From: Escherichia phage Esco_phi_B-01
Reading direction: 5' to 3' (one strand)
DNA length: 64,000 nucleotides
Sequence record: OP292222.1
Part shown: in pieces, positions 8,320 through 33,254 of the stretch
Layout of the letters: each line of letters starts with the position of its first letter
Position numbering within the stretch: the stretch's first letter is position 1
Notes under the pieces: model-generated
The model's input: the letters and a program-made list of their open reading frames with translations, nothing else
Told to the model about the DNA's origin: nothing
Databases searched by the model: none
Position numbers and translations under genes: made by a program

Positions 8320-11031
8320 ATGCAAGAATTCTATTTGACAGTCGAACAAATCGGTGATAATATTCTCGAACGTTACATCGATAAAAATGGTAACGAACGT
8401 AGTCGTGAAGTTCCTTACAAGCCTACAATGTTTATGCATGCCAACCCAGAGCAAGCCGTAAAATATATTGACATCTACGGTAAGGGCTGTGTTAAGAAAG
8501 AATTCGATTCAATGCGCGATGCTTCTCAGTGGATGAAGCGAATGGACGATATGGGTCTCGAAGCCCTTGGTATGGACGACTACAAATTAGCCTATTTGTC
8601 TGATACCTATCGTAAAGAAATCAAGTATGATTCTTCCAAGATTCGTATTGCTAACTTCGACATCGAGGTAACATCTCCTGATGGATTCCCTGAACCTGCC
8701 CAGGCTAAACATCCTATCGATGCCATTACTCACTACGACTCGATTGACGATAAATTCTATGTATTCGACCTTTTAGTTTCACCTTATGGTACGGTCGAAG
8801 AGTGGTCGATTAAAATCGCTGAGAAACTCCAAGACGAAGGTGGTGACGAAGTTCCACAAGAAATCATTGACAAAATCGTTTATCTTCCGTTTAATTCTGA
8901 AGAAGAAATGATGCTTGAGTATCTGAATTTCTGGCAACAGAAAACTCCTGTGATTTTGACTGGATGGAACGTTGAATCATTTGACGTGCCATACGTTTAT
9001 AACCGTCTGAAAAATCTGTTTGGTGAGAACACTGCTAAGCGATTAAGCCCGCATCGTAAGACTCGTGTTAAAGTTATCGAGAATATGTACGGTGTTCGTG
9101 AAATTATTACACTGTTCGGTATTTCTGTTCTGGATTATATCGACCTTTATAAAAAATTCAGCTTTACTAACCAGCCTTCTTATTCTCTGGATTATGTTTC
9201 TGAATATGAATTGAAAGTAGGTAAGTTGAAATATGATGGTCCTATCTCCAAGTTACGTGAGACAAACCACCAACGATATATTTCCTATAACATTATCGAC
9301 GTATATCGTGTTGTGCAGATTGATATGAAACGCCAGTTCATTCTTCTTAGTCTGGACATGGGTTATTATGCTAAGATGCAGATTCAGTCAGTGTTCAGTC
9401 CAATTAAGACTTGGGACGCTATTATCTTTAATAGCCTTAAAGAACAGGGTAAAGTTATTCCTCAGGCCAAATCGCATGCGGTTCAACCTTATCCAGGTGC
9501 TTTCGTTAAGGAACCTATTCCTAACGCGTACAAATATGTAATGAGTTTCGACCTTACATCTCTGTACCCAAGTATCATTCGACAAGTGAATATAAGCCCA
9601 GAGACCATCGCAGGCACATTCGCCAACGCACCGATACATGAATATATTGCCGGAACTGCTCCGCGTCCTAGCGACACCTACAGTTGCTCTCCTAACGGCA
9701 TGATGTACTATAAAGACCGTGATGGTGTGATTCCTACAGAAATCACGAAGGTGTTCTTACAACGTAAAGAACATAAAGGTTATATGCTCGCAGCTCAACG
9801 TAATGGTGAGTTAATTAAAGAAGCATTAGAAAATCCTAATCCATCTGTTGATAGTCCACTGGATATCGATTATCGTTTCGACTTCTCTGACGAAATCAAA
9901 GCCCAGATTAAAAAATTGTCAGCATCTTCTTTAAAAGAAATGTTGTTCAAAGCCGAACGTACTGAAGTCGCAGGTATGACTGCTCAGATTAACCGTAAGT
10001 TGCTTATCAACTCCCTTTATGGTGCACTTGGTAACGTATGGTTCCGTTACTATGACCTCAGGAACGCAACTGCAATCACATTGTTTGGTCAAATGGCCCT
10101 CCAATGGATTGAACGTAAGGTTAACGAATATCTGAATAGCGTATGTAAGACCGAAAACCAGAAGTTCGTGCTCTATGGTGATACCGACTCCATTTATGTT
10201 AAGGCCGATGCAATCATCAATAAAGTAGGCGAAGATAAATTCCGTGATACTAACCACTGGGTTGACTTCTTAGATAAATTTGCACGTGAACGTATGGAAC
10301 CAGCTATTGATGCAGGCTTCCGTGAGATGTGTGAATACATGAACAATAAACAGCACTTGATGTTCATGGACCGAGAAGCTATCGCAGGTCCTCCACTTGG
10401 TTCTAAAGGTCTTGGTGGATTCTGGACAGGCAAGAAACGTTATGCACTGAACGTTTGGGACATGGAAGGTACTCGTTATGCCGAACCACACTTGAAAATC
10501 ATGGGTCTCGAAACTCAGAAATCAAGTACACCTAAAGCGGTTCAGAAAGCACTGAAAGAATGTATCCGTCGTATGCTTCAAGAAGGCGAGGCCTCTTTGC
10601 AAGAGTATTTCAAACAGTTTAATAAGGAATTTAACGAATTAGACTATGTAAGCATTGCTGCAGTATCCAGTGCTAACAACATCGAGAAATATAATGAAGG
10701 TGGTTTCCCTGGTTCTAAATGCCCGTATCACATCAAAGGTTGCTTAGCTTACATGCGTGCTTCTGCTGGTGATTTGACTATGCCTCGTATCGTTGATGGT
10801 GAAAAGGTATATGTACTGCCACTTAAAGAAGGCAACCCGTTCGGTGAAGCTTGTATGGCATGGCCGTCAGGTATTGAACTTCCGATTCAGATTCGTGACC
10901 AAGTCCTCCGTTGGATGGACTACAACGTACTGTTCCAAAAGACCTTTATCAAACCCCTGACCGGTTTTACTGAGTCTGCTAAAATCGACTACGAGAAAAA
11001 AGCAACATTATTTGACATGTTTGACTTTTAA
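8320..11031 (+). CDS. 43: gp43 DNA polymerase (family B)
   Basis: start MQEFYL aligned to T4 MKEFYI; exo motifs (FDIE), pol motifs (SLYPS, YGDTDS); RBS aaaggaaa. Confidence 0.95.
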   Translation: MQEFYLTVEQIGDNILERYIDKNGNERSREVPYKPTMFMHANPEQAVKYIDIYGKGCVKKEFDSMRDASQWMKRMDDMGLEALGMDDYKLAYLSDTYRKEIKYDSSKIRIANFDIEVTSPDGFPEPAQAKHPIDAITHYDSIDDKFYVFDLLVSPYGTVEEWSIKIAEKLQDEGGDEVPQEIIDKIVYLPFNSEEEMMLEYLNFWQQKTPVILTGWNVESFDVPYVYNRLKNLFGENTAKRLSPHRKTRVKVIENMYGVREIITLFGISVLDYIDLYKKFSFTNQPSYSLDYVSEYELKVGKLKYDGPISKLRETNHQRYISYNIIDVYRVVQIDMKRQFILLSLDMGYYAKMQIQSVFSPIKTWDAIIFNSLKEQGKVIPQAKSHAVQPYPGAFVKEPIPNAYKYVMSFDLTSLYPSIIRQVNISPETIAGTFANAPIHEYIAGTAPRPSDTYSCSPNGMMYYKDRDGVIPTEITKVFLQRKEHKGYMLAAQRNGELIKEALENPNPSVDSPLDIDYRFDFSDEIKAQIKKLSASSLKEMLFKAERTEVAGMTAQINRKLLINSLYGALGNVWFRYYDLRNATAITLFGQMALQWIERKVNEYLNSVCKTENQKFVLYGDTDSIYVKADAIINKVGEDKFRDTNHWVDFLDKFARERMEPAIDAGFREMCEYMNNKQHLMFMDREAIAGPPLGSKGLGGFWTGKKRYALNVWDMEGTRYAEPHLKIMGLETQKSSTPKAVQKALKECIRRMLQEGEASLQEYFKQFNKEFNELDYVSIAAVSSANNIEKYNEGGFPGSKCPYHIKGCLAYMRASAGDLTMPRIVDGEKVYVLPLKEGNPFGEACMAWPSGIELPIQIRDQVLRWMDYNVLFQKTFIKPLTGFTESAKIDYEKKATLFDMFDF

Positions 11032-11033
11032 GT

Positions 11034-11063
11034 GTTTACATACCACATGGAACGTGGTATTAT
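11034..11063 (+). promoter_or_regulatory. T4-type early promoter (GTTTAC - 18 - TGgTATTAT)
   Basis: -35 GTTTAC at 11034-11039, extended -10, conserved leader cctatcaactacatgagga. Confidence 0.6.
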
Positions 11064-11093
11064 CCTTCCTATCAACTACATGAGGAAATTATA

Positions 11094-11330
11094 ATGGAAG
11101 CTTTAATCGTTAGTGCTGGTGTTTTAGGATTCGGTTCTCTGGCTATTATGTTCATTGGTTACTTTTTACCATGGATTCTAGCTCTTTTGCGAGGCACCCG
11201 TAGCAATGTCGGAATCTTCTTCCTTAATCTCTTGTTAGGATGGACGATGATTGGTTGGGTAGTGGCTTTAATCTGGGCCATCGTCGCTGAACGTAAATCA
11301 AACGCACAAATCATTATCGTTAAACAATGA
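11094..11330 (+). CDS. imm: Imm-like superinfection immunity membrane protein (two TM helices)
   Basis: 78 aa with two hydrophobic helices and conserved GW motifs; sits where T4 has imm, next to gene 43. Confidence 0.5.
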   Translation: MEALIVSAGVLGFGSLAIMFIGYFLPWILALLRGTRSNVGIFFLNLLLGWTMIGWVVALIWAIVAERKSNAQIIIVKQ

Positions 11331-11464
11331 AGATAATTATTTTATTTCTTATAATGACTGCCTTTACCGTTTATTGGGCAGTGGCAATTCCTCCAATGAT
11401 TCCAACATTAATCATAGGATGGATTATTCTTATAGCACAAATTAAGTATAACTGTTTTAATTGA
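11327..11464 (+). CDS. small hydrophobic membrane peptide (45 aa)
   Basis: ATGA overlap with the imm-like stop; hydrophobic throughout. Confidence 0.35.
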   Translation: MKIIILFLIMTAFTVYWAVAIPPMIPTLIIGWIILIAQIKYNCFN

Positions 11465-11471
11465 GGATATT

Positions 11472-11972
11472 ATGAAAAAGTTAATTATCGCAATGAGTAT
11501 GCTCCTATCAGGTTGCGCGGTCCAATACGGTGATGCAGTTTCGGCTGATGAAGTTGGTAAAGCTCGTATTGCAGCTGAACAGAAACAATTCGACGGCGAA
11601 ATGAAATTCCGTGCCGGTTCTGGACTTGTGTATACCCGAGCTAATAATCAATGTGGTAATAACTGTGCAAAATATGCTCAAAGGGAAATCGAATTCCAAC
11701 GTGAACAAGAGTCTAAGCGTGAAGAGGTACTAGCCAAACACCAGGCAGAAATGAAGCGCCAAGATGATTTGTACAAAAAGCAGAAACTGTATTCTATGTG
11801 TGTAAACCATATCAATCTACAGATTTCTGTCCATGAGGCTCGTTATTACGAAATGCTCGAAACCGAGAGCTTCGATAAAGCTCGTGATTATAAGAAACAA
11901 ATCAACAAGCTTAAGACCAAAGTGCCTGCTGCAGTAGAACAGTGCATGGAATACGGTAAAGATAAGATTTAA
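11472..11972 (+). CDS. putative lipoprotein (166 aa)
   Basis: signal peptide with lipobox LLSGC; RBS gagga. Confidence 0.6.
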   Translation: MKKLIIAMSMLLSGCAVQYGDAVSADEVGKARIAAEQKQFDGEMKFRAGSGLVYTRANNQCGNNCAKYAQREIEFQREQESKREEVLAKHQAEMKRQDDLYKKQKLYSMCVNHINLQISVHEARYYEMLETESFDKARDYKKQINKLKTKVPAAVEQCMEYGKDKI

Positions 11973-12032
11973 GCAATAGAAATTTATTAAAAATAGTGTA
12001 TAATGTACCTACATTCACTTGAGGAACAGATA

Positions 12033-13706
12033 ATGAAAAAGGTTGTTATTTTAGGCGCAGGTCTTGGCTCACGGTTGTATCCAATTACTAACGAAATCCC
12101 GAAGGTATTGGTTAACTATAAACAACATACGGTATTAAAGCATTTGTATGATTTGTATAGTAACCAATCAGATGAAATTATTCTGGTTATTCACAGCAAA
12201 TTTAACGACCTCGTTAAAGGCTATATTAAATCCATTAACATGATTACTGGTGATAAGCCTAAATTCACTATTCGTAACGTTGATGTTGCTAATGGTTCAG
12301 CTCATGCAATCGATTGCATTGCCGAAGATATCATTGGCCATAATGTCCTGTTTAACTGGTGTGACATCATTCCTATCGGTCATAAAGTTGAATGGGGTAA
12401 CGACTACTGTTATACCTATGGAACTGACTGTCGTTTTACATTTGAAGAACCGTACTTACGTGAAATTGGTACTGGTGGCGGTGTAGTTGGTTTGTATCAG
12501 GTAGCCAATTGGACAGGTTTCGACCGTTCTAATTATGGTGAAGACCTTGCTGATAACCTGGATTCAATGGTCTATTTGACCGAACGTAAACTGGATTTTG
12601 TAGTTGATGTCGGTGACAAATTGAAACTGGCTAAGGCCCATGAAGAATCTGAAATTAACCGTGAATTTAATAAATTAGAATTCACCGAGAATCTGGCTAT
12701 TAAAGTACCAACTAACGAATTAGGTAAAGAAATTCAATCTAAAGAAATCAATTGGTATAATTCTATTGATTCTGAATTCGTTCCTAGCATTGTAGACTTT
12801 TCTCCAGGCGAATTCATTAAAATGGAACGTATCTTTGGTCGAACCATGGCAGATGCCTACCGGTTTATGTCCAAAGAAACTAAAGTCCTCATGGTTTATA
12901 AGGTCATTAGTGCATTACGTTCATTTGGTGGAACTATTGATAACCCGTCCGATGAGCAATGGTATTCCGATGTTAAGAAAGAAGTATTGGACAAGGTCCT
13001 TATTCGTAATGCTTCTATTGCTGGATTGATTGAAGGCTTTGCTCCACAGGGCATTACCCATGTTAACGATTTCAAAGTAGGCGACCCTGAAAAACTTCTT
13101 CGCCATGCACTAGAAATTCTGTCTGAACATAAAGAACCGTACCAACTTATTCATGGCGACCCGCACTACAGTAATATTATGCTGTCGGACGAAGGTGATA
13201 TTAAAATCATCGACCCACGTGGTTATTTCGGTAATAGTTCTAAAGGCCCTGCGATTTATGATGAAGCTAAGGTGCTTTATTCTATCGATGGCTATGACAA
13301 ATTTAACTCAGACCCTCTATGGGGCGGATTAACTCGTAACGGAACTCGTGTATTCGTTGATATCGAAAAGATTATGCCTTTAGACGATATCCCTATGTGC
13401 ACATTTAAGCACAAGCTCTGGATTGCTGTTATTTGGATGGCTCTGGCAGGTTACTTTAAGAATAACCCTCTGAAAGCTCTAGGTGCTTATTATAACGGTT
13501 TGTACCAACTGAGTGTGCTGCTGAAGCGGCATCCTCGTAAGCGTAAGCTTATTACGGGTGAATTTGTCGATGAAGTTCGTGACCCTATTACGGCTCAAAT
13601 TATTACTCGTTGTCCTGATAAGTGGGTTTTGCTTGACCAGGAAACTGGTGTAAAATATAAACCTACAGGTTCTACTGAACTCCACAAACAATGGAAGAAA
13701 ATTTAA
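12033..13706 (+). CDS. bifunctional sugar-1-phosphate nucleotidyltransferase / APH-like sugar kinase fusion
   Basis: N-terminal ILGAGLGSRLYPIT...PKVL (RmlA/GlmU-type NTP-transferase signature); C-terminal HGDPHYSNIML...IIDPRGYFG (aminoglycoside/choline kinase fold Brenner and DxxG motifs); RBS gagga. Confidence 0.75.
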   Translation: MKKVVILGAGLGSRLYPITNEIPKVLVNYKQHTVLKHLYDLYSNQSDEIILVIHSKFNDLVKGYIKSINMITGDKPKFTIRNVDVANGSAHAIDCIAEDIIGHNVLFNWCDIIPIGHKVEWGNDYCYTYGTDCRFTFEEPYLREIGTGGGVVGLYQVANWTGFDRSNYGEDLADNLDSMVYLTERKLDFVVDVGDKLKLAKAHEESEINREFNKLEFTENLAIKVPTNELGKEIQSKEINWYNSIDSEFVPSIVDFSPGEFIKMERIFGRTMADAYRFMSKETKVLMVYKVISALRSFGGTIDNPSDEQWYSDVKKEVLDKVLIRNASIAGLIEGFAPQGITHVNDFKVGDPEKLLRHALEILSEHKEPYQLIHGDPHYSNIMLSDEGDIKIIDPRGYFGNSSKGPAIYDEAKVLYSIDGYDKFNSDPLWGGLTRNGTRVFVDIEKIMPLDDIPMCTFKHKLWIAVIWMALAGYFKNNPLKALGAYYNGLYQLSVLLKRHPRKRKLITGEFVDEVRDPITAQIITRCPDKWVLLDQETGVKYKPTGSTELHKQWKKI

Positions 13707-14089
13707 TGTCGTATCGAGTAGAAAATAAGCCACATTTATGTTTTGATATCGATAACACAATCACGATTTGGAACCATGACCGTGATTATGAGAACTTTAA
13801 ACCGGACACCGAAATGGTGTCCATGATTAATAAGCTTTATGATGAAGGGTACGAGATTACATTGTTCACCGCGCGTGGCATGACTTCATGTGGCCCAGGT
13901 CGAATCTTGGTTGAAGTAGTTCCTGCCTTGGTTAAGAACCTTGAAAAAATTGGATTGAAATATCACAATTTGCTTACACATAAGCCGAGTTATACTTTTA
14001 TCATCGATGACCGAGCAATCCGTCCTGACCACTTTAAAGAAATGGTTCGTGAAGGAACTCTTGATGGTTATAAGGCCTATCATCCATGA
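13706..14089 (+). CDS. small HAD-superfamily phosphatase
   Basis: motif I FDIDNTIT near the N-terminus, TAR motif II; TAATG coupling to the upstream gene. Confidence 0.6.
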   Translation: MSYRVENKPHLCFDIDNTITIWNHDRDYENFKPDTEMVSMINKLYDEGYEITLFTARGMTSCGPGRILVEVVPALVKNLEKIGLKYHNLLTHKPSYTFIIDDRAIRPDHFKEMVREGTLDGYKAYHP

Positions 14090-14622
14090 ATCCAAAAATC
14101 ATTGTTATAGACGGCCCGGATAATTCCGGGAAGTCCACTTTAATTAAAAATCTGTTATCCAATAAGAAATACCGCCTTATTGATTTTCCTAAAAAGATTA
14201 ATGGCAAGTGTATTTCATTAGGAACTGATAACGATAAGGCTTTAGTTGAAACTCTGTATAAGTTTTTAGACCCTAATTTCGTTTATATCCTTGACCGTGG
14301 TTATCCAAGTAATATTGTTTACTCAGGATTCCTTCGTGGTGAAATGGACCCTTATGTAGAACTGGAAGATTGGAAAGGGTTTAAATCTGAATTTAACGTT
14401 ATCGAGGTTATTTTAACTCGCAACCCATTAGACGAAGACTTCGAAGACGACCTTATTAAATTAACCGAAGATGAGTTCAACCTAACTATCCGGCAATACG
14501 AAACATGTTTTGAAAACGTGTTTAAAATCTTAAATCATGACGGCCATAATAATTTGCTTAATGTTGATATGGTAGAATTAAAACGTCTGAACGAATATAT
14601 TGAAAATAAGGTGAATAAATGA
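14086..14622 (+). CDS. thymidylate-kinase-like P-loop nucleotide kinase
   Basis: IVIDGPDNSGKST P-loop and DRGYPSNIVYSG (TMK DR(Y/F)..S..AYQ-like motif); ATGA coupling. Confidence 0.6.
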   Translation: MNPKIIVIDGPDNSGKSTLIKNLLSNKKYRLIDFPKKINGKCISLGTDNDKALVETLYKFLDPNFVYILDRGYPSNIVYSGFLRGEMDPYVELEDWKGFKSEFNVIEVILTRNPLDEDFEDDLIKLTEDEFNLTIRQYETCFENVFKILNHDGHNNLLNVDMVELKRLNEYIENKVNK

Positions 14623-15317
14623 AACACATTACCGCTGTTAGTTTTGAAAATGCATTTAAACAAATGAACGAAGAAATCCTGGAAGCTCCACAGTTTGCAG
14701 TTGATTCTCGTATCGGACGTTGTTATGAAATTGGTTCTGCTTCGGTAGAAGTACTGGATGCAAGCACCTATAAATTCACCGACCCACGTATTAATCGTAT
14801 TAGTTATGAATATGCCGAATCCTTTTGGAAATTTATGATTTCTGGTGGTACTGACGCTGCCGAAGCATTTAAGGAATACCCTAATGTTGCTAAGTTCATT
14901 GATAAGCCGAAAAGTGACGTATTGCCTGCAAACTTCAACACTTTCTATGGACCTCGAATTGTGGCCCAACTCCCAGCCCTACTTAAAGAGCTTAAAGAAA
15001 AGGCTAACTCGCGAAGAGTTGTGTTCCAGATTCTCCAAGAACAAGACCAAGCCCTCCTTGATTCTGACGAATCCTTAGAATATCCGTGTACCGATTCGGT
15101 AACGTATTATATTCGTGACGGACGTTTGTATGCACACACCCATATGCGTTCACAGAACTGCGCTGTTGTTATGCAGCTGGATTTCTATCTGCAGGGTAAA
15201 CTGATGGCATTTATTGCTGAACAGTGTGGTGTCGGTTTAGGTACATATTCCCACACCATGGTAAGTGCACACGTGTTTGAACGCGATTTTGACTACGTCC
15301 GAGGTTTCCTGAAATGA
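14619..15317 (+). CDS. 42: dCMP hydroxymethylase (thymidylate-synthase fold)
   Basis: catalytic-Cys region YPCTDSV and MRSQN... align with T4 gp42 FMCTNTV / MRSND; position as in T4. Confidence 0.8.
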   Translation: MKHITAVSFENAFKQMNEEILEAPQFAVDSRIGRCYEIGSASVEVLDASTYKFTDPRINRISYEYAESFWKFMISGGTDAAEAFKEYPNVAKFIDKPKSDVLPANFNTFYGPRIVAQLPALLKELKEKANSRRVVFQILQEQDQALLDSDESLEYPCTDSVTYYIRDGRLYAHTHMRSQNCAVVMQLDFYLQGKLMAFIAEQCGVGLGTYSHTMVSAHVFERDFDYVRGFLK

Positions 15318-20374: not shown

Positions 20375-20668
20375 ATGAAAAAGTTATTAATCGCAGCAAT
20401 CCTTACAGTAGCATCATGTGGTACAGCTCCAGTTACGGCTGGATTGGATAAAGACCTTTGTGAATGGTCTATGACCGCAGACCAAGAATCAGTTGAACAT
20501 CAGATTTACGCTGATATCATGAATATCACTAAACGTGACCGTCCTGATATGGTTAAAGAAGTATCTGACCAATTGGCTTCTAGCGGTGTTATGCAGTATA
20601 ACTATGTTCTGTACTGTGATGCTAATTTCGATAACAAAAATATTGTTAAAGAGGTGATAGGTGAATAA
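20375..20668 (+). CDS. sp: Spackle-like periplasmic protein (Sp)
   Basis: 97 aa with signal peptide; DKDLCEWSMTADQ...VMQYNYVLYCD resembles remembered T4 Sp. Confidence 0.5.
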   Translation: MKKLLIAAILTVASCGTAPVTAGLDKDLCEWSMTADQESVEHQIYADIMNITKRDRPDMVKEVSDQLASSGVMQYNYVLYCDANFDNKNIVKEVIGE

Positions 20669-26214: not shown

Positions 26215-26829
26215 ATGTTATATCCAAGCCATAAATTAGCAGAATTTATCAACAATGCCAAATGCGATGATTTCCGTGAGAATACTCAGATAGAAATTGA
26301 TGAGGTGTATTCTGATTTAGAACAGAGCACGCTCTGGCAGTGTATGGAAAATAAACCTGATTCTATCCAGGAAACTCTGAACAAAATTATTCGTAAGAAC
26401 CTGACTTCTGTAGTGCCTGATAAGCTCTATCGCGGTATATCTAAAAAGACCCTGAAGTATCTAGAGTCCACAATGTGTGTGGGTGCGGTAATTGAATTCG
26501 ACCGCGTGATGAGCTTCTCTAAAGACTTCAACGTAGCAAGGAATTTCGCATCTTATAACTTCTACGGCACATTTAATATCTTTTGTATTAATGATGCGCC
26601 ATTTGTGTACAATTATCAGGAAGAAATCTTTAAAATGTTATGTGCTGCGCCCCCTGAAGAGTTCCCAGGCGCATTTCCTGAATCTACCCGTGTAGCAAAC
26701 TTACAATTAATTAATGATGAAGATGAGATGATGTTCCCTGCGGGAACTACGCTGCGCGTAGACTCTATTGAGAGAAATCCTAAATGGAATAATTACACCA
26801 TTTGGAATCTTTCCGTTCTTTCTTACTGA
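26215..26829 (+). CDS. modA: ADP-ribosyltransferase, ModA-like (R-S-E type)
   Basis: LYRGIS, MSFSKDF, EDEMMF motifs; paralog of the upstream gene. Confidence 0.55.
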   Translation: MLYPSHKLAEFINNAKCDDFRENTQIEIDEVYSDLEQSTLWQCMENKPDSIQETLNKIIRKNLTSVVPDKLYRGISKKTLKYLESTMCVGAVIEFDRVMSFSKDFNVARNFASYNFYGTFNIFCINDAPFVYNYQEEIFKMLCAAPPEEFPGAFPESTRVANLQLINDEDEMMFPAGTTLRVDSIERNPKWNNYTIWNLSVLSY

Positions 26830-26898
26830 ACCACCCGGTTTAATTGAAAGGCAAAGTCCTTGATTCATTATACCGTTGAAAATTTAAAGCAAAAAAGT

Positions 26899-26927
26899 GT
26901 TTACTTTATTAAGCAACATGATACTAT
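26899..26927 (+). promoter_or_regulatory. T4-type early promoter (GTTTAC - 17 - TGaTACTAT)
   Basis: consensus plus conserved leader atagacctatcaactaat. Confidence 0.65.
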
Positions 26928-26967
26928 AGACCTATCAACTAATCGTCCGTAAGATGAGAAAAATATC

Positions 26968-27717
26968 ATGCCTACTATTAAAACTAGCGATGAATTTGAG
27001 TTAAAGGTTTACAACCGCCGCAAACACACCAAAGCTTCTGCTTATAAACGTGGTAAGGACTTCAATCTGTCTAGTAAGTATGTTCGTAGACTTCTCGAAC
27101 AAAAAGTGTGCGCTTATTCAGGCGAGTACTTTGATGAAAATTCAGTTAATGATAAGATTTCATTTGAACGTTTTAACAACGATATCGGCTATATTGAGGG
27201 TAATGTAATCCCAGTTAAAGTTAAGTATAACAGCTTACGTGCCGATTTGTCCCTTGATGAACTGAAACGTGCCCAGACTCGTTTAGCAGTTCGTATTTCA
27301 GGTAGTTCTAAAATGCCTAATAGTTTTAAAGTTACCCCTGATAATTATTATAAAATCCGTAAAATCGTTAAAAATATAAAAGATACCCAAAGAGGTCTTA
27401 AAAAACGTGAAAAACGTCTTAAAGACCTTATTAAATCGGGAGCTACTGATAAGACTCCTTCTGTTATCGCGGTTAAGGCCCGTATCCACGGTTCTAACGC
27501 TTCAATCGGTACTATGGAAAAAGGTCTTAAATCTTTAATTGGTGGGCCTGACTGGCGCGTCAAGTTTAAATTGTCTGAAGCAGAAACGCGTTACGATATG
27601 TATGATAAAATTATTCAAGGTCTGGAGCGTTTAGAACACCTTTCTTTTATTGACAAATTGAAGTTGAAAAAAGGTCTTCCGCTGAATGCTTCAATTTTTT
27701 CACTGATTAGAGGTTAA
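26968..27717 (+). CDS. srd: Srd-like protein (name by position and size)
   Basis: 249 aa ORF located modA - srd - dda.1 - dda as in T4; contains a CxxxGE...N...N HNH-like core lacking the His residues. Confidence 0.55.
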   Translation: MPTIKTSDEFELKVYNRRKHTKASAYKRGKDFNLSSKYVRRLLEQKVCAYSGEYFDENSVNDKISFERFNNDIGYIEGNVIPVKVKYNSLRADLSLDELKRAQTRLAVRISGSSKMPNSFKVTPDNYYKIRKIVKNIKDTQRGLKKREKRLKDLIKSGATDKTPSVIAVKARIHGSNASIGTMEKGLKSLIGGPDWRVKFKLSEAETRYDMYDKIIQGLERLEHLSFIDKLKLKKGLPLNASIFSLIRG

Positions 27718-32993: not shown

Positions 32994-33254
32994 ATGAAAT
33001 ATGTTAATCGTTCTATCGCGGCTCTTGTACTAGCAGTTTCGTTGGTTGGTTGTACTGATGCCGATAATGCTACCCGTGTATTAGATGCAAATGGCTACGA
33101 ACAAATCCAAATCACGGGATACAACCTATTTGGCTGTTCTGAAGATGATTTCCAACGTACAGGCTTTATTGCTGTAGGGCCGACAGGTAAAAGGGTTGAA
33201 GGAACAGTTTGTTCCGGGTTATTCTTTAAAAAGTCGACCATTCGATTTGATTAA
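32994..33254 (+). CDS. putative lipoprotein (86 aa)
   Basis: signal peptide with lipobox LVGC. Confidence 0.55.
   Translation: MKYVNRSIAALVLAVSLVGCTDADNATRVLDANGYEQIQITGYNLFGCSEDDFQRTGFIAVGPTGKRVEGTVCSGLFFKKSTIRFD

What the first reader, a model, noticed from the sequence alone, without database searches (positions are those of the whole stretch)
11094..11972. Three consecutive envelope-targeted small proteins after gene 43
An Imm-like two-helix membrane protein, a 45-aa hydrophobic peptide and a 166-aa lipoprotein (lipobox LSGC) are co-transcribed from one early promoter. T4 has only imm here. The lipoprotein is a candidate extra superinfection-exclusion or receptor-masking factor.
Basis: inference. 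Interest (0 to 1): 0.4.

Follow-up and report, generated by a model that had tools for sequence, protein, structure and literature searches.

The report
T-even imm / 42.1 / imm.1 gene block
The three small envelope proteins after the DNA polymerase gene are real, but they are not an addition to T4: they are this JS98-like phage's rearranged copy of a block T4 also carries (imm, 42.1, imm.1), and its outer-membrane lipoprotein still has no known function.

Summary
The window is a JS98-like T-even phage (Dhakavirus, 98% identity). The three ORFs sit at the stated coordinates and evolve under purifying selection (dN/dS 0.02-0.17 against two relatives). They follow a T4-type early promoter placed right after the gene 43 stop, with no terminator-like site.

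T4 has imm.1, a 125-aa lipoprotein (lipobox LAGC, Pfam DUF5481), between genes 43 and imm. It falls in the same PHROG (1754) as the 166-aa lipoprotein. T4 also has an unannotated 49-aa ORF after imm, called 42.1 in other phage records, that is homologous to the 45-aa peptide. The trio is therefore a conserved T-even block in a different gene order.

New here:
- The model shows a lipid anchor, a conserved N-terminal module, a charged helical stalk and a disulfide-locked three-helix tip.
- The tip is swapped as a sharply bounded cassette between otherwise near-identical phages.
- imm, 42.1 and the N-terminal half form a second mosaic block.

No fold, family or literature search gave a function. 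A role in post-adsorption exclusion in the periplasm is my best guess (about 0.35). Receptor masking is less likely. The block is an ordinary member of a known but uncharacterised family, of modest interest.

The parts
11034..11063 (+). T4-type early promoter directly after the gene 43 stop codon: -35 GTTTAC(A) and -10 TATTAT, with an upstream TG
   Evidence: The scan gave 10 of 12 matches, a 17-nt spacer and a TG. GTTTAC then TAxxAT recurs right after the gene 43 stop in 8 of 9 distinct loci compared. T4 has it further downstream, after a terminator-like hairpin; PEi20 differs.
11040..11060 (+). 7-bp inverted repeat (ATACCAC...GTGGTAT) inside the promoter spacer; possible RNA hairpin at the 3' end of gene 43 transcripts
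   Evidence: Folds at -7.8 kcal/mol, z = -0.86, so weak on its own. Hairpins with different stem sequences sit at the same place in most other phages compared. Role unknown.
11094..11330 (+). imm: 78-aa inner-membrane superinfection immunity protein with two hydrophobic segments
   Evidence: Pfam PF14373 5e-18; phrog_1039 5e-32; 46% identical to T4 Imm; dN/dS 0.02-0.05. GAGGA ribosome-binding site at 11082-11086.
11327..11464 (+). 42.1 homologue: 45-aa hydrophobic peptide, start overlapping the imm stop (ATGA)
   Evidence: phrog_3610 3e-21. Homologues in T4 (unannotated), RB69 orf054c, VR7 '42.1', PEi20, PM2, CHI14 and CIP9, with invariant Y16, P22, M24, P26, T27, W32, Q38 and C43. Relatives carry a precomputed Pfam PF26865 assignment.
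11472..11972 (+). Imm.1-family lipoprotein, 166 aa (mature 152 aa, pI 8.5); signal peptide 11472-11513, lipidated Cys15 at 11514-11516
   Evidence: Lipobox LSGC and +2 Ala. phrog_1754 4e-52, the same PHROG as T4 Imm.1. hhalign to T4 Imm.1 95.9%, E 5e-9. dN/dS 0.07-0.13. AF2 mean pLDDT 78.7.
11517..11711 (+). Conserved N-terminal module of the lipoprotein: tether, short helix, beta-hairpin GSGLVYTR, NQCGNNC loop and start of the charged stalk. Diverges together with imm and 42.1 in VR5.
   Evidence: G49, G51, Y54 and Q60 are invariant or nearly so. The VR5 mosaic block spans 11117-11711 at 63-83% nucleotide identity, with flanks at 90-100%.
11732..11971 (+). Hypervariable C-terminal cassette: a three-helix bundle tip with invariant C110 and C158
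   Evidence: pLDDT above 94. Window against metagenomic Dhakavirus L014: 42-73% nucleotide identity here, 92-100% everywhere else. Three tip types occur on N-domains at least 80% identical.
11977..12004 (+). Second promoter-like site (TAGAAA-16-TATAAT) between the lipoprotein gene and the next gene, whose start is at 12033 in the JS98 annotation
   Evidence: It marks the downstream edge of the three-gene unit. No terminator-like site precedes it.

Best explanation
The stretch is the Dhakavirus version of a conserved T-even early block of three envelope proteins.

What it is (identity, about 0.9 confidence):
- imm encodes the inner-membrane protein that, in T4, keeps the DNA of a superinfecting phage out of the cytoplasm.
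- 42.1 encodes a roughly 45-aa membrane peptide translationally coupled to imm.
- The third gene encodes an Imm.1-family lipoprotein.
- T4 has all three in the order 43 - imm.1 - imm - 42.1 - 42. Here and in VR7 the order is 43 - imm - 42.1 - imm.1-like.
- All three are read from an early promoter directly after gene 43, and probably also by read-through from gene 43.

How it probably works (inferred):
- The lipoprotein is cleaved and lipidated at LSG|C. With Ala at +2 it should go to the inner leaflet of the outer membrane.
- It would project into the periplasm a conserved N-terminal module, a charged helical stalk and a disulfide-locked three-helix tip.
- The tip occurs in discrete types that are exchanged as cassettes, so it probably recognises a variable partner.
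- My preferred mechanism (about 0.35): it is an outer-membrane-side partner of Imm (inner membrane) and Spackle (cell wall) that interferes, after adsorption, with the tail tip or injection machinery of related superinfecting phages.

None of the functional steps was shown here.
For: Identity:
- The window is 98% identical to JS98-type phages over this stretch.
- Family hits for the three ORFs.
- T4 imm.1 is a lipoprotein of PHROG 1754 and Pfam DUF5481.
- A profile built without T4 sequences matches T4 Imm.1.
- T4 has an unannotated 42.1 ORF with the same ATGA coupling to imm.
- The lipoprotein family always lies downstream of gene 43 in the genera sampled.
- The early promoter is shared across these loci.
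- Purifying selection acts on all three ORFs.

Envelope location:
- In the 37-sequence family alignment the lipobox Gly is invariant and the lipidated Cys is present in at least 90% of members. One aligned member (P0034) has an ordinary signal peptide instead.
- C110 and C158 are invariant, and most members also have a CxxxC pair. That fits an oxidising periplasm.
- +2 is Ala; outer-membrane sorting then follows from the E. coli Lol '+2 rule' (established knowledge).

Specificity tip:
- Sharp cassette swap at 11732-11971.
- P0003 and P0004 have identical N-domains but tips only 38% identical. The reverse discordance never occurs.
- Within one tip type dN/dS is 0.06-0.17, so each type is constrained.

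Link to imm:
- imm, 42.1 and the N-terminal half of the lipoprotein diverge as one block in VR5.
Against: - No experiment or paper on imm.1 or DUF5481 function was found.
- No PADLOC, NCBIfam or PDB-sequence hit.
- Imm and the lipoprotein are separable. PEi20, PM2, CHI14 and CIP9 have the lipoprotein and 42.1 at this locus without imm, and no imm was found in the first 50 kb of PEi20.
- RB69 lacks Imm.1 (PMC5885020).
- Imm homologues occur in 1633 phage records, including Mycobacterium phages.
- Plasmid-borne T4 imm alone is reported to confer exclusion (Lu & Henning 1989, from my own knowledge; the paper is not held).
- Adjacency in the 43-42 interval may only reflect a region where accessory genes accumulate.
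Confidence: 0.4

Rival explanations
1. Receptor masking. The lipoprotein binds the periplasmic face of the phage's outer-membrane receptor and inactivates it, as T5 Llp and T1/phi80 Cor do with FhuA. This would stop superinfection and the loss of progeny on cell debris.
For: It is an early-expressed predicted outer-membrane lipoprotein. Its variable tip could track different receptors. Llp and Cor are the best-known early phage lipoproteins (PMC9586334, listed; PMC11990801).
Against: - The only similarity to Cor is the signal peptide (phrog_1119, E 0.014, residues 1-18). No fold match to any PDB chain.
- The gene sits next to the DNA polymerase gene, not next to receptor-binding genes where llp and cor-type genes lie (PMC11990801).
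- The family spans phages of Escherichia, Salmonella, Edwardsiella, Serratia, Pectobacterium, Enterobacter and others.
- T-even exclusion and lysis inhibition presuppose that secondary phages still adsorb.
Confidence: 0.12
2. Envelope maintenance or lysis timing. The lipoprotein stabilises the infected cell's envelope, for example against lysis from without or premature collapse of lysis inhibition, or it acts as an Lpp-like strut. It would not block entry of other phages.
For: The stalk-plus-bundle architecture is anchored in the outer membrane. imm and sp mutants already show partial defects in lysis inhibition, so genes at this locus touch that phenotype (PMC6832632). The family persists in phages with no imm at the locus.
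Against: A purely structural role does not predict discrete tip cassettes that are exchanged between near-identical phages. The protein is not proline-rich and has no adjacent i-spanin partner. It follows an early rather than a late promoter, so it is not an o-spanin.
Confidence: 0.2
3. A function unrelated to imm. The 43-42 interval is a plastic region that collects accessory genes. The lipoprotein would target something else in the periplasm, such as a host defence or stress system or an unrelated competitor, and its adjacency to imm would be historical.
For: Gene order in this interval is shuffled between genera, and sugar-nucleotide genes are inserted in it. Imm and the lipoprotein occur without each other.
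Against: In the loci sampled the lipoprotein gene stays in the interval downstream of gene 43, first after the shared early promoter or after imm and 42.1. imm, 42.1 and its N-terminal half move as one mosaic block in VR5.
Confidence: 0.2
4. One or more of the three ORFs is not a gene, in particular the 45-aa ORF, which many Dhakavirus records do not annotate.
For: The ORF is short and many deposited annotations omit it.
Against: The 42.1 protein sequence is conserved across eight distinct phages of several genera, with 10 invariant positions out of about 45. phrog_3610 E 3e-21. Its start overlaps the stop of the preceding gene in the loci where this was read: imm in the window, T4 and VR7, the isomerase gene in PEi20. 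dN/dS is 0.05-0.09 against IME540 and WG01.
Confidence: 0.03

Closest known systems
T4 Imm.1 (gene imm.1, NP_049661; Pfam DUF5481 / PF17578; PHROG 1754), function unknown
   Same: - Lipoprotein signal (LAGC against LSGC) and the shared mature N-terminus motif V-x-x-x-D/E-V-G-K.
- Four Cys in the mature chain, including the invariant distal pair.
- Same PHROG and a profile-profile match.
- Same locus downstream of gene 43, behind a similar early promoter.
   Different: - 166 aa against 125 aa.
- T4 lacks the GSGLVYTR beta-hairpin and NQCGNNC motif and most of the charged stalk.
- Pairwise BLASTP is only E 0.04, and the window protein does not reach Pfam DUF5481.
- Gene order is inverted relative to imm.
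T4 Imm (gene imm; PF14373), inner-membrane superinfection immunity protein
   Same: ORF1 is a clear orthologue: 46% identity, the same two hydrophobic segments, and the same locus between genes 43 and 42.
   Different: 78 aa against 83 aa. It is the first gene after the promoter here, and the second in T4.
T4 '42.1' / RB69 orf054c small membrane peptide (PHROG 3610; precomputed Pfam PF26865)
   Same: ORF2 shares the invariant Y, P-x-M-x-P-T, W and Q and the C-terminal K-Y-x-C-F-N motif. Its start overlaps the stop of the upstream gene.
   Different: 45 aa against 47-49 aa. In PEi20, PM2, CHI14, CIP9 and RB69 it follows an arabinose-5-phosphate isomerase gene instead of imm.
T5 Llp and T1/phi80/N15 Cor (receptor-blocking outer-membrane lipoproteins)
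   Same: Small phage lipoproteins predicted or shown to reach the outer membrane and expressed before lysis.
   Different: No sequence or fold similarity beyond the signal peptide. The genomic neighbourhood differs: replication genes here, receptor-binding genes there. The architecture is a helical stalk and bundle.
T4 Spackle (gp61.3), periplasmic inhibitor of the gp5 tail lysozyme
   Same: An early, exported T-even protein that acts in the periplasm against superinfecting relatives (PMC7677548). This is the kind of mechanism I favour for the lipoprotein.
   Different: Spackle is soluble, not lipidated, unrelated in sequence and encoded elsewhere. PEi20 carries a spackle gene as well as the lipoprotein gene.

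Membership tests
Imm superinfection immunity proteins (Pfam PF14373) - ORF1 | Match to the family model above its curated cut-off | tested here: met
   65.1 bits against a cut-off of 27.9, E 5e-18; phrog_1039 5e-32.
Imm superinfection immunity proteins (Pfam PF14373) - ORF1 | Small protein with two hydrophobic membrane segments | tested here: met
   Hydropathy windows at residues 2-33 and 39-67, the same pattern as T4 Imm.
Imm superinfection immunity proteins (Pfam PF14373) - ORF1 | Blocks DNA entry of superinfecting T-even phage | not testable with these tools
   Needs plating-efficiency and DNA-injection assays.
Imm.1 family (PHROG 1754; T4 Imm.1 = Pfam DUF5481) - ORF3 | Match to PHROG 1754, which also contains T4 Imm.1 | tested here: met
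   Window protein 4e-52 over residues 1-163; T4 Imm.1 6e-43.
Imm.1 family (PHROG 1754; T4 Imm.1 = Pfam DUF5481) - ORF3 | Match to Pfam DUF5481 (PF17578) | tested here: not met
   No hit at E <= 0.1, while T4 Imm.1 scores 239 bits. The Pfam model covers only the T4-type subfamily, so I file ORF3 under the wider PHROG family and not under DUF5481.
Imm.1 family (PHROG 1754; T4 Imm.1 = Pfam DUF5481) - ORF3 | Homology to T4 Imm.1 shown without circularity | tested here: met
   hhalign of a 23-sequence profile with no T4 sequence against T4 Imm.1: probability 95.9%, E 5e-9, 92 columns. Part of the score comes from the signal peptide. Pairwise BLASTP alone is weak (E 0.04).
Imm.1 family (PHROG 1754; T4 Imm.1 = Pfam DUF5481) - ORF3 | Conserved distal Cys pair and location downstream of gene 43 | tested here: met
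   C110 and C158 are invariant in 37 sequences. The synteny holds in all the loci inspected.
42.1 small membrane peptide (PHROG 3610 / PF26865) - ORF2 | Match to the family model and the conserved motif P-x-M-[IV]-P-T ... Q-x-[KR]-[YF]-x-C-[FI]-[NW] | tested here: met
   phrog_3610 3e-21. The motif is present. PF26865 is not in the local Pfam copy, but a 93%-identical relative, P0060, carries the precomputed assignment.
Bacterial lipoproteins (signal peptidase II substrates) - ORF3 | Positive n-region, hydrophobic h-region and lipobox [LVI][ASTVI][GAS]C within about the first 25 residues | tested here: met
   MKK-LIIAMSMLLSGC. In the 37-sequence alignment the lipobox Gly is invariant and the Cys is present in at least 90% of members. 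Only 3 ORFs in the 64-kb window fit the pattern.
Bacterial lipoproteins (signal peptidase II substrates) - ORF3 | Actual lipidation and outer-membrane sorting (no Asp at +2) | tested here: inconclusive
   +2 is Ala, which predicts outer-membrane sorting by the Lol rule. Lipidation and localisation themselves need globomycin, palmitate-labelling and fractionation experiments.
Llp/Cor receptor-blocking lipoproteins - ORF3 | Sequence or fold similarity to Llp or Cor | tested here: not met
   Cor PHROG hit only at E 0.014 and confined to residues 1-18. No significant PDB or viral fold match outside the family itself.
Llp/Cor receptor-blocking lipoproteins - ORF3 | Gene located beside the receptor-binding protein gene | tested here: not met
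   The gene lies between the DNA polymerase gene and nucleotide/sugar-metabolism genes.
o-spanins (Rz1-like outer-membrane lipoproteins) - ORF3 | Short proline-rich lipoprotein paired with an i-spanin in a late lysis cassette | tested here: not met
   166 aa, helical and not proline-rich. It follows an early-type promoter, and its neighbours are imm and 42.1, not a holin, endolysin or i-spanin.

The most novel reading that the evidence does not exclude
Imm.1-family lipoproteins could be a third, outer-membrane-anchored arm of T-even superinfection exclusion. The exchangeable three-helix tip would set which relatives are excluded, making it a polymorphic 'exclusion type'. The conserved N-terminal module might co-operate with Imm and 42.1 across the periplasm, since these three segments move as one mosaic block.
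Probability: 0.2. Interest if true: 0.6.

Novelty: new member of a known kind. Interest (0 to 1): 0.3.

Why it matters
Imm and Spackle have been textbook T4 exclusion factors for decades. How Imm works is still unclear, and the two genes flanking it in T4 (imm.1 and 42.1) have never been assigned a function.

This work shows three things:
- The three genes form a conserved, permuted early block across T-even phages.
- The lipoprotein has an anchor-stalk-tip architecture.
- Its tip is swapped as a cassette between near-identical phages.

That gives a concrete experiment: test tip-swapped and lipidation-dead variants against a panel of T-even phages. If the tip sets exclusion specificity, it would help explain which related phages can co-infect and recombine, and it would matter for designing phage cocktails. 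If it does not, the block remains ordinary accessory content.

The work also corrects some annotation. T4 imm.1 is labelled 'iduronate sulfatase' in RefSeq, and several homologues are labelled 'capsid and scaffold protein'.

Tried and rejected
- **Family libraries for the lipoprotein.** Pfam gave only sub-threshold noise (MTBP_mid, BRD4_CDT). NCBIfam and PADLOC gave nothing.
- **Exhaustive profile search of 1.84 billion representatives.** It returned only 24 clusters. Those I read were short proteins of the same lipoprotein type. The exception, a 1550-aa repeat protein (P0038), shares only the short motif G-[ST]-G-L-x-Y-x-x-x-x-N-x-C-G, and I rejected it as a motif-level resemblance.
- **Rfam.** No hit on either strand of 10500-12500.
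- **Literature.** Searches for imm.1, DUF5481, gp42.1, the T4 accessions, and Tevenvirinae with lipoprotein found no functional study. Lu & Henning 1989 is not held.
- **Whole-genome check of imm in PEi20.** I tested only the first 50 kb, which covers the early region. The rest of the genome was not fetched.
- **Spanin and Lpp-like readings.** I considered both and rejected them as memberships (see the membership test).
- **Minus-strand ORFs under the block.** Those of 51, 66, 45 and 35 aa have no support, and I treated them as chance.
Full report
**1. What is in the sequence**

The window matches JS98-type T-even phages (genus Dhakavirus) at 95-98.5% nucleotide identity over 10900-12100. Upstream lie the clamp-loader genes 44 and 62, regA and the DNA polymerase gene 43.

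- ORF1 hits Pfam Imm_superinfect at 65 bits against a cut-off of 27.9. It has two hydrophobic segments like T4 Imm.
- ORF2 is a very hydrophobic peptide that matches phrog_3610 at 3e-21.
- ORF3 begins MKKLIIAMSMLLSGC, a standard lipoprotein signal with Ala at +2. It matches phrog_1754 at 4e-52.

The genes are tightly packed. The imm stop and the ORF2 start overlap as ATGA. The ORF2 stop overlaps the GAGGA ribosome-binding site of ORF3.

Against the Dhakavirus relatives IME540 and WG01, dN/dS is 0.02 for imm, 0.05-0.09 for ORF2 and 0.12-0.13 for ORF3. All three are therefore real genes under purifying selection. Rfam finds nothing on either strand, and the short minus-strand ORFs have no support.

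**2. Transcription**

A promoter-like site lies at 11035-11063 (TTTACA, 17 nt, TATTAT, with an upstream TG). There is no terminator-like site between 10800 and 12300.

The same arrangement, GTTTAC a few bases after the gene 43 stop followed by TAxxAT, occurs in JS98, VR7, PM2, CHI14, CIP9, S16 and Ursula. T4 has it further downstream, after a terminator-like hairpin. PEi20 has a variant. GTTTAC is the T4 early-promoter -35 element (established knowledge). Co-transcription from a conserved early promoter is thus well supported, although not shown directly, and read-through from gene 43 is also likely. A second promoter-like site at 11977-12004 separates the block from the next gene.

**3. The comparison with T4 is wrong**

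The T4 RefSeq record shows 43 - imm.1 - imm - 42.

- T4 imm.1 encodes a 125-aa protein starting MKIAILVIALGLAGC, so it is also a lipoprotein.
- It belongs to the same PHROG 1754 (6e-43) and defines Pfam DUF5481.
- A profile of 23 family members that contains no T4 sequence matches T4 Imm.1 at 95.9% probability, E 5e-9.
- Pairwise BLASTP is weak (E 0.04), and the window protein does not reach the narrow Pfam model. It is a diverged member of the wider family, not a DUF5481 protein in the strict sense.

Directly after T4 imm, again overlapping as ATGA, there is an unannotated 49-aa ORF: MKSKIIAALLLILMIIISIYYSVTVPLMIPTIILGWSLLLLQVKYECIN. It is plainly homologous to ORF2. RB69 orf054c is annotated as 'similar to T4 42-imm intercistronic region', and VR7 names the gene 42.1.

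Eight sequences from different phages share invariant Y16, P22, M24, P26, T27, W32, Q38 and C43. Database relatives carry a precomputed Pfam PF26865 assignment.

T4 therefore has all three gene families. Only the order differs.

**4. Distribution and synteny**

| Phage (genus) | Gene order after 43 |
|---|---|
| Window, JS98 (Dhakavirus); VR7 (Gaprivervirus) | imm - 42.1 - lipoprotein |
| T4 | imm.1 - imm - 42.1 |
| S16, Ursula | lipoprotein - imm |
| A metagenomic type (L015, L016) | imm - lipoprotein, starts overlapping |
| PEi20, PM2, CHI14, CIP9 | lipoprotein - arabinose-5-phosphate isomerase - 42.1, no imm |
| RB69 | isomerase - 42.1, neither imm nor imm.1 here |

A local tblastn found no imm in the first 50 kb of PEi20. 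PMC5885020 lists Imm.1 as present in the T4 group and absent from the RB69 group. Imm homologues occur in 1633 phage records, including Mycobacterium and Gordonia phages.

The lipoprotein family is tiny by comparison. It appears in 126 phage records by tblastn and in 24 representative clusters among 1.84 billion proteins. Imm and the lipoprotein are therefore linked but separable.

**5. Anatomy of the lipoprotein**

With 37 sequences, AlphaFold2 gives mean pLDDT 78.7. The elements are:

- a disordered tether (residues 16-24);
- a short helix (25-38);
- a beta-hairpin (42-56) carrying the near-invariant G-x-G-x-x-Y-x-R;
- the NQCGNNC loop;
- a helix of about 70 residues (62-131), whose first half is rich in Glu, Arg and Lys;
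- two helices that fold back to form a three-helix bundle (pLDDT above 94).

C110 and C158 are invariant in the alignment. Both lie in helices of the predicted bundle, so a disulfide between them is likely, which fits a periplasmic location. With Ala at +2 the protein should be sorted to the outer membrane (the Lol rule, established knowledge). One family member, P0034, has an ordinary signal peptide instead of a lipobox.

No fold search gave a specific match. There is no PDB sequence relative and no hit in NCBIfam or PADLOC.

**6. Mosaic structure, the main new observation**

Against a metagenomic Dhakavirus contig (L014), the window is 92-100% identical in every 60-nt bin from 10534 to 12990. 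The exception is 11732-11971, where identity falls to 42-73%. That interval is the C-terminal bundle of the lipoprotein.

At the protein level, P0005 is 100% identical over residues 16-66 and 24% identical over 99-166. P0003 and P0004 have identical N-domains and tips 38% identical. Three tip types sit on N-domains at least 80% identical, and the reverse discordance never occurs. Within one tip type dN/dS is 0.06-0.17, so each type is constrained rather than decaying.

Against phage VR5 the pattern is complementary. Gene 43 and everything from 11712 onward are 90-100% identical. The stretch 11117-11711, which covers imm, 42.1 and the first 80 or so codons of the lipoprotein, is 63-83% identical.

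The charged stalk is thus a recombination junction. The N-terminal module travels with imm and 42.1, and the tip is exchanged independently.

**7. Most likely function**

*Shown:* the identity of the three families, their conservation, envelope-targeting signals, an early-promoter context and the cassette behaviour of the tip.

*Inferred:* outer-membrane localisation, the disulfides and recognition of a variable partner by the tip.

My preferred reading, at about 0.35, is a post-adsorption exclusion or protection factor. It would act from the outer-membrane side of the periplasm against the tail tip or injection machinery of related phages. This would complement Imm at the inner membrane and Spackle at the cell wall (PMC7677548).

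Receptor masking of the Llp/Cor type is less likely, for four reasons:
- There is no similarity beyond the signal peptide.
- The genomic neighbourhood is wrong.
- The family spans phages of many host genera.
- T-even exclusion and lysis inhibition assume that secondary phages still adsorb.

Envelope stabilisation or lysis timing remains open. So does a function unrelated to imm. I found no paper on imm.1, DUF5481 or 42.1 function in the held library.

**8. Verdict**

The claim of novelty relative to T4 is not. The block is the Dhakavirus member of a known, conserved but functionally uncharacterised T-even gene set. Interest is modest (0.3). The tip cassette and the co-inherited imm / 42.1 / N-module block make a long-ignored pair of T4 genes experimentally approachable.

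Noticed in passing
window 11040-11060 (inside the promoter spacer 11034-11063): A perfect 7-bp inverted repeat (ATACCAC atggaac GTGGTAT) lies between the -35 and -10 elements right after the gene 43 stop. Most other phages compared have a hairpin at the same place with a different stem sequence (VR7 ACGGCAA/TTGCCGT, PM2 ATATCACA, S16 ACATCC/GGATGT, Ursula ATCCAC/GTGGAT). T4 instead has a canonical terminator-like hairpin upstream. The fold energy alone is not significant (z = -0.86). It could be a 3'-end hairpin of gene 43 mRNA or a promoter feature.
   Followed up: partly
window 12033-15317 and beyond: A cluster lies between the imm block and the gene 42-like thymidylate-synthase-family gene: a 557/567-aa nucleotidyltransferase plus APH-type kinase fusion, a 132-aa protein matching a PHROG labelled 'phosphoheptose isomerase', and a 178-aa thymidylate-kinase-like protein. 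The JS98 record calls these RB69 orf052c, 051c, 045c and 048c-like. This looks like the sugar-nucleotide / hydroxymethylcytosine modification cluster of RB69-type phages, although the arabinose-5-phosphate isomerase seen at this locus in RB69, PEi20, PM2 and CHI14 is absent here.
   Followed up: no
window 20375-20668 (+) and 32994-33254 (+): These are the only two other ORFs in the 64-kb window with a lipoprotein-type signal: 97 aa starting MKKLLIAAILTVASC, and 86 aa starting MKYVNRSIAALVLAVSLVGC. I did not characterise them.
   Followed up: no
L002 (T4 NC_000866.4) 26636-27013; several Dhakavirus and Gaprivervirus records: Probable annotation errors. T4 imm.1 is labelled 'iduronate sulfatase' in RefSeq. 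Homologues of the lipoprotein are labelled 'capsid and scaffold protein' or 'recombination endonuclease subunit-containing protein' in some records. The 42.1 ORF is missing from T4 RefSeq and from many Dhakavirus annotations.
   Followed up: partly
P0038 (1550 aa, metagenomic): This protein has nine tandem repeats of '...GGGTGLTYTPAANYCGSDSF...'. It hits positions 32-69 of the lipoprotein profile at E 1e-7 because of the shared short motif G-[ST]-G-L-x-Y-x-x-x-x-N-x-C-G. It is probably only a motif-level resemblance to Ig/cadherin-like repeat strands.
   Followed up: partly
L016 744-3689 (ENA contig NODE_202, 90.8 kb): In this relative the DNA polymerase gene is called as two ORFs (577 aa and 335 aa) separated by about 200 nt. 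In the near-identical L015 it is one 904-aa gene. This could be a split polymerase, an inserted element or an assembly frameshift.
   Followed up: no
L015 and L016 3762-4480: This is another arrangement of the block. The imm stop overlaps the lipoprotein start with no 42.1 between them. An unannotated 469-aa gene with no Pfam hit follows, and then uvsX.
   Followed up: no
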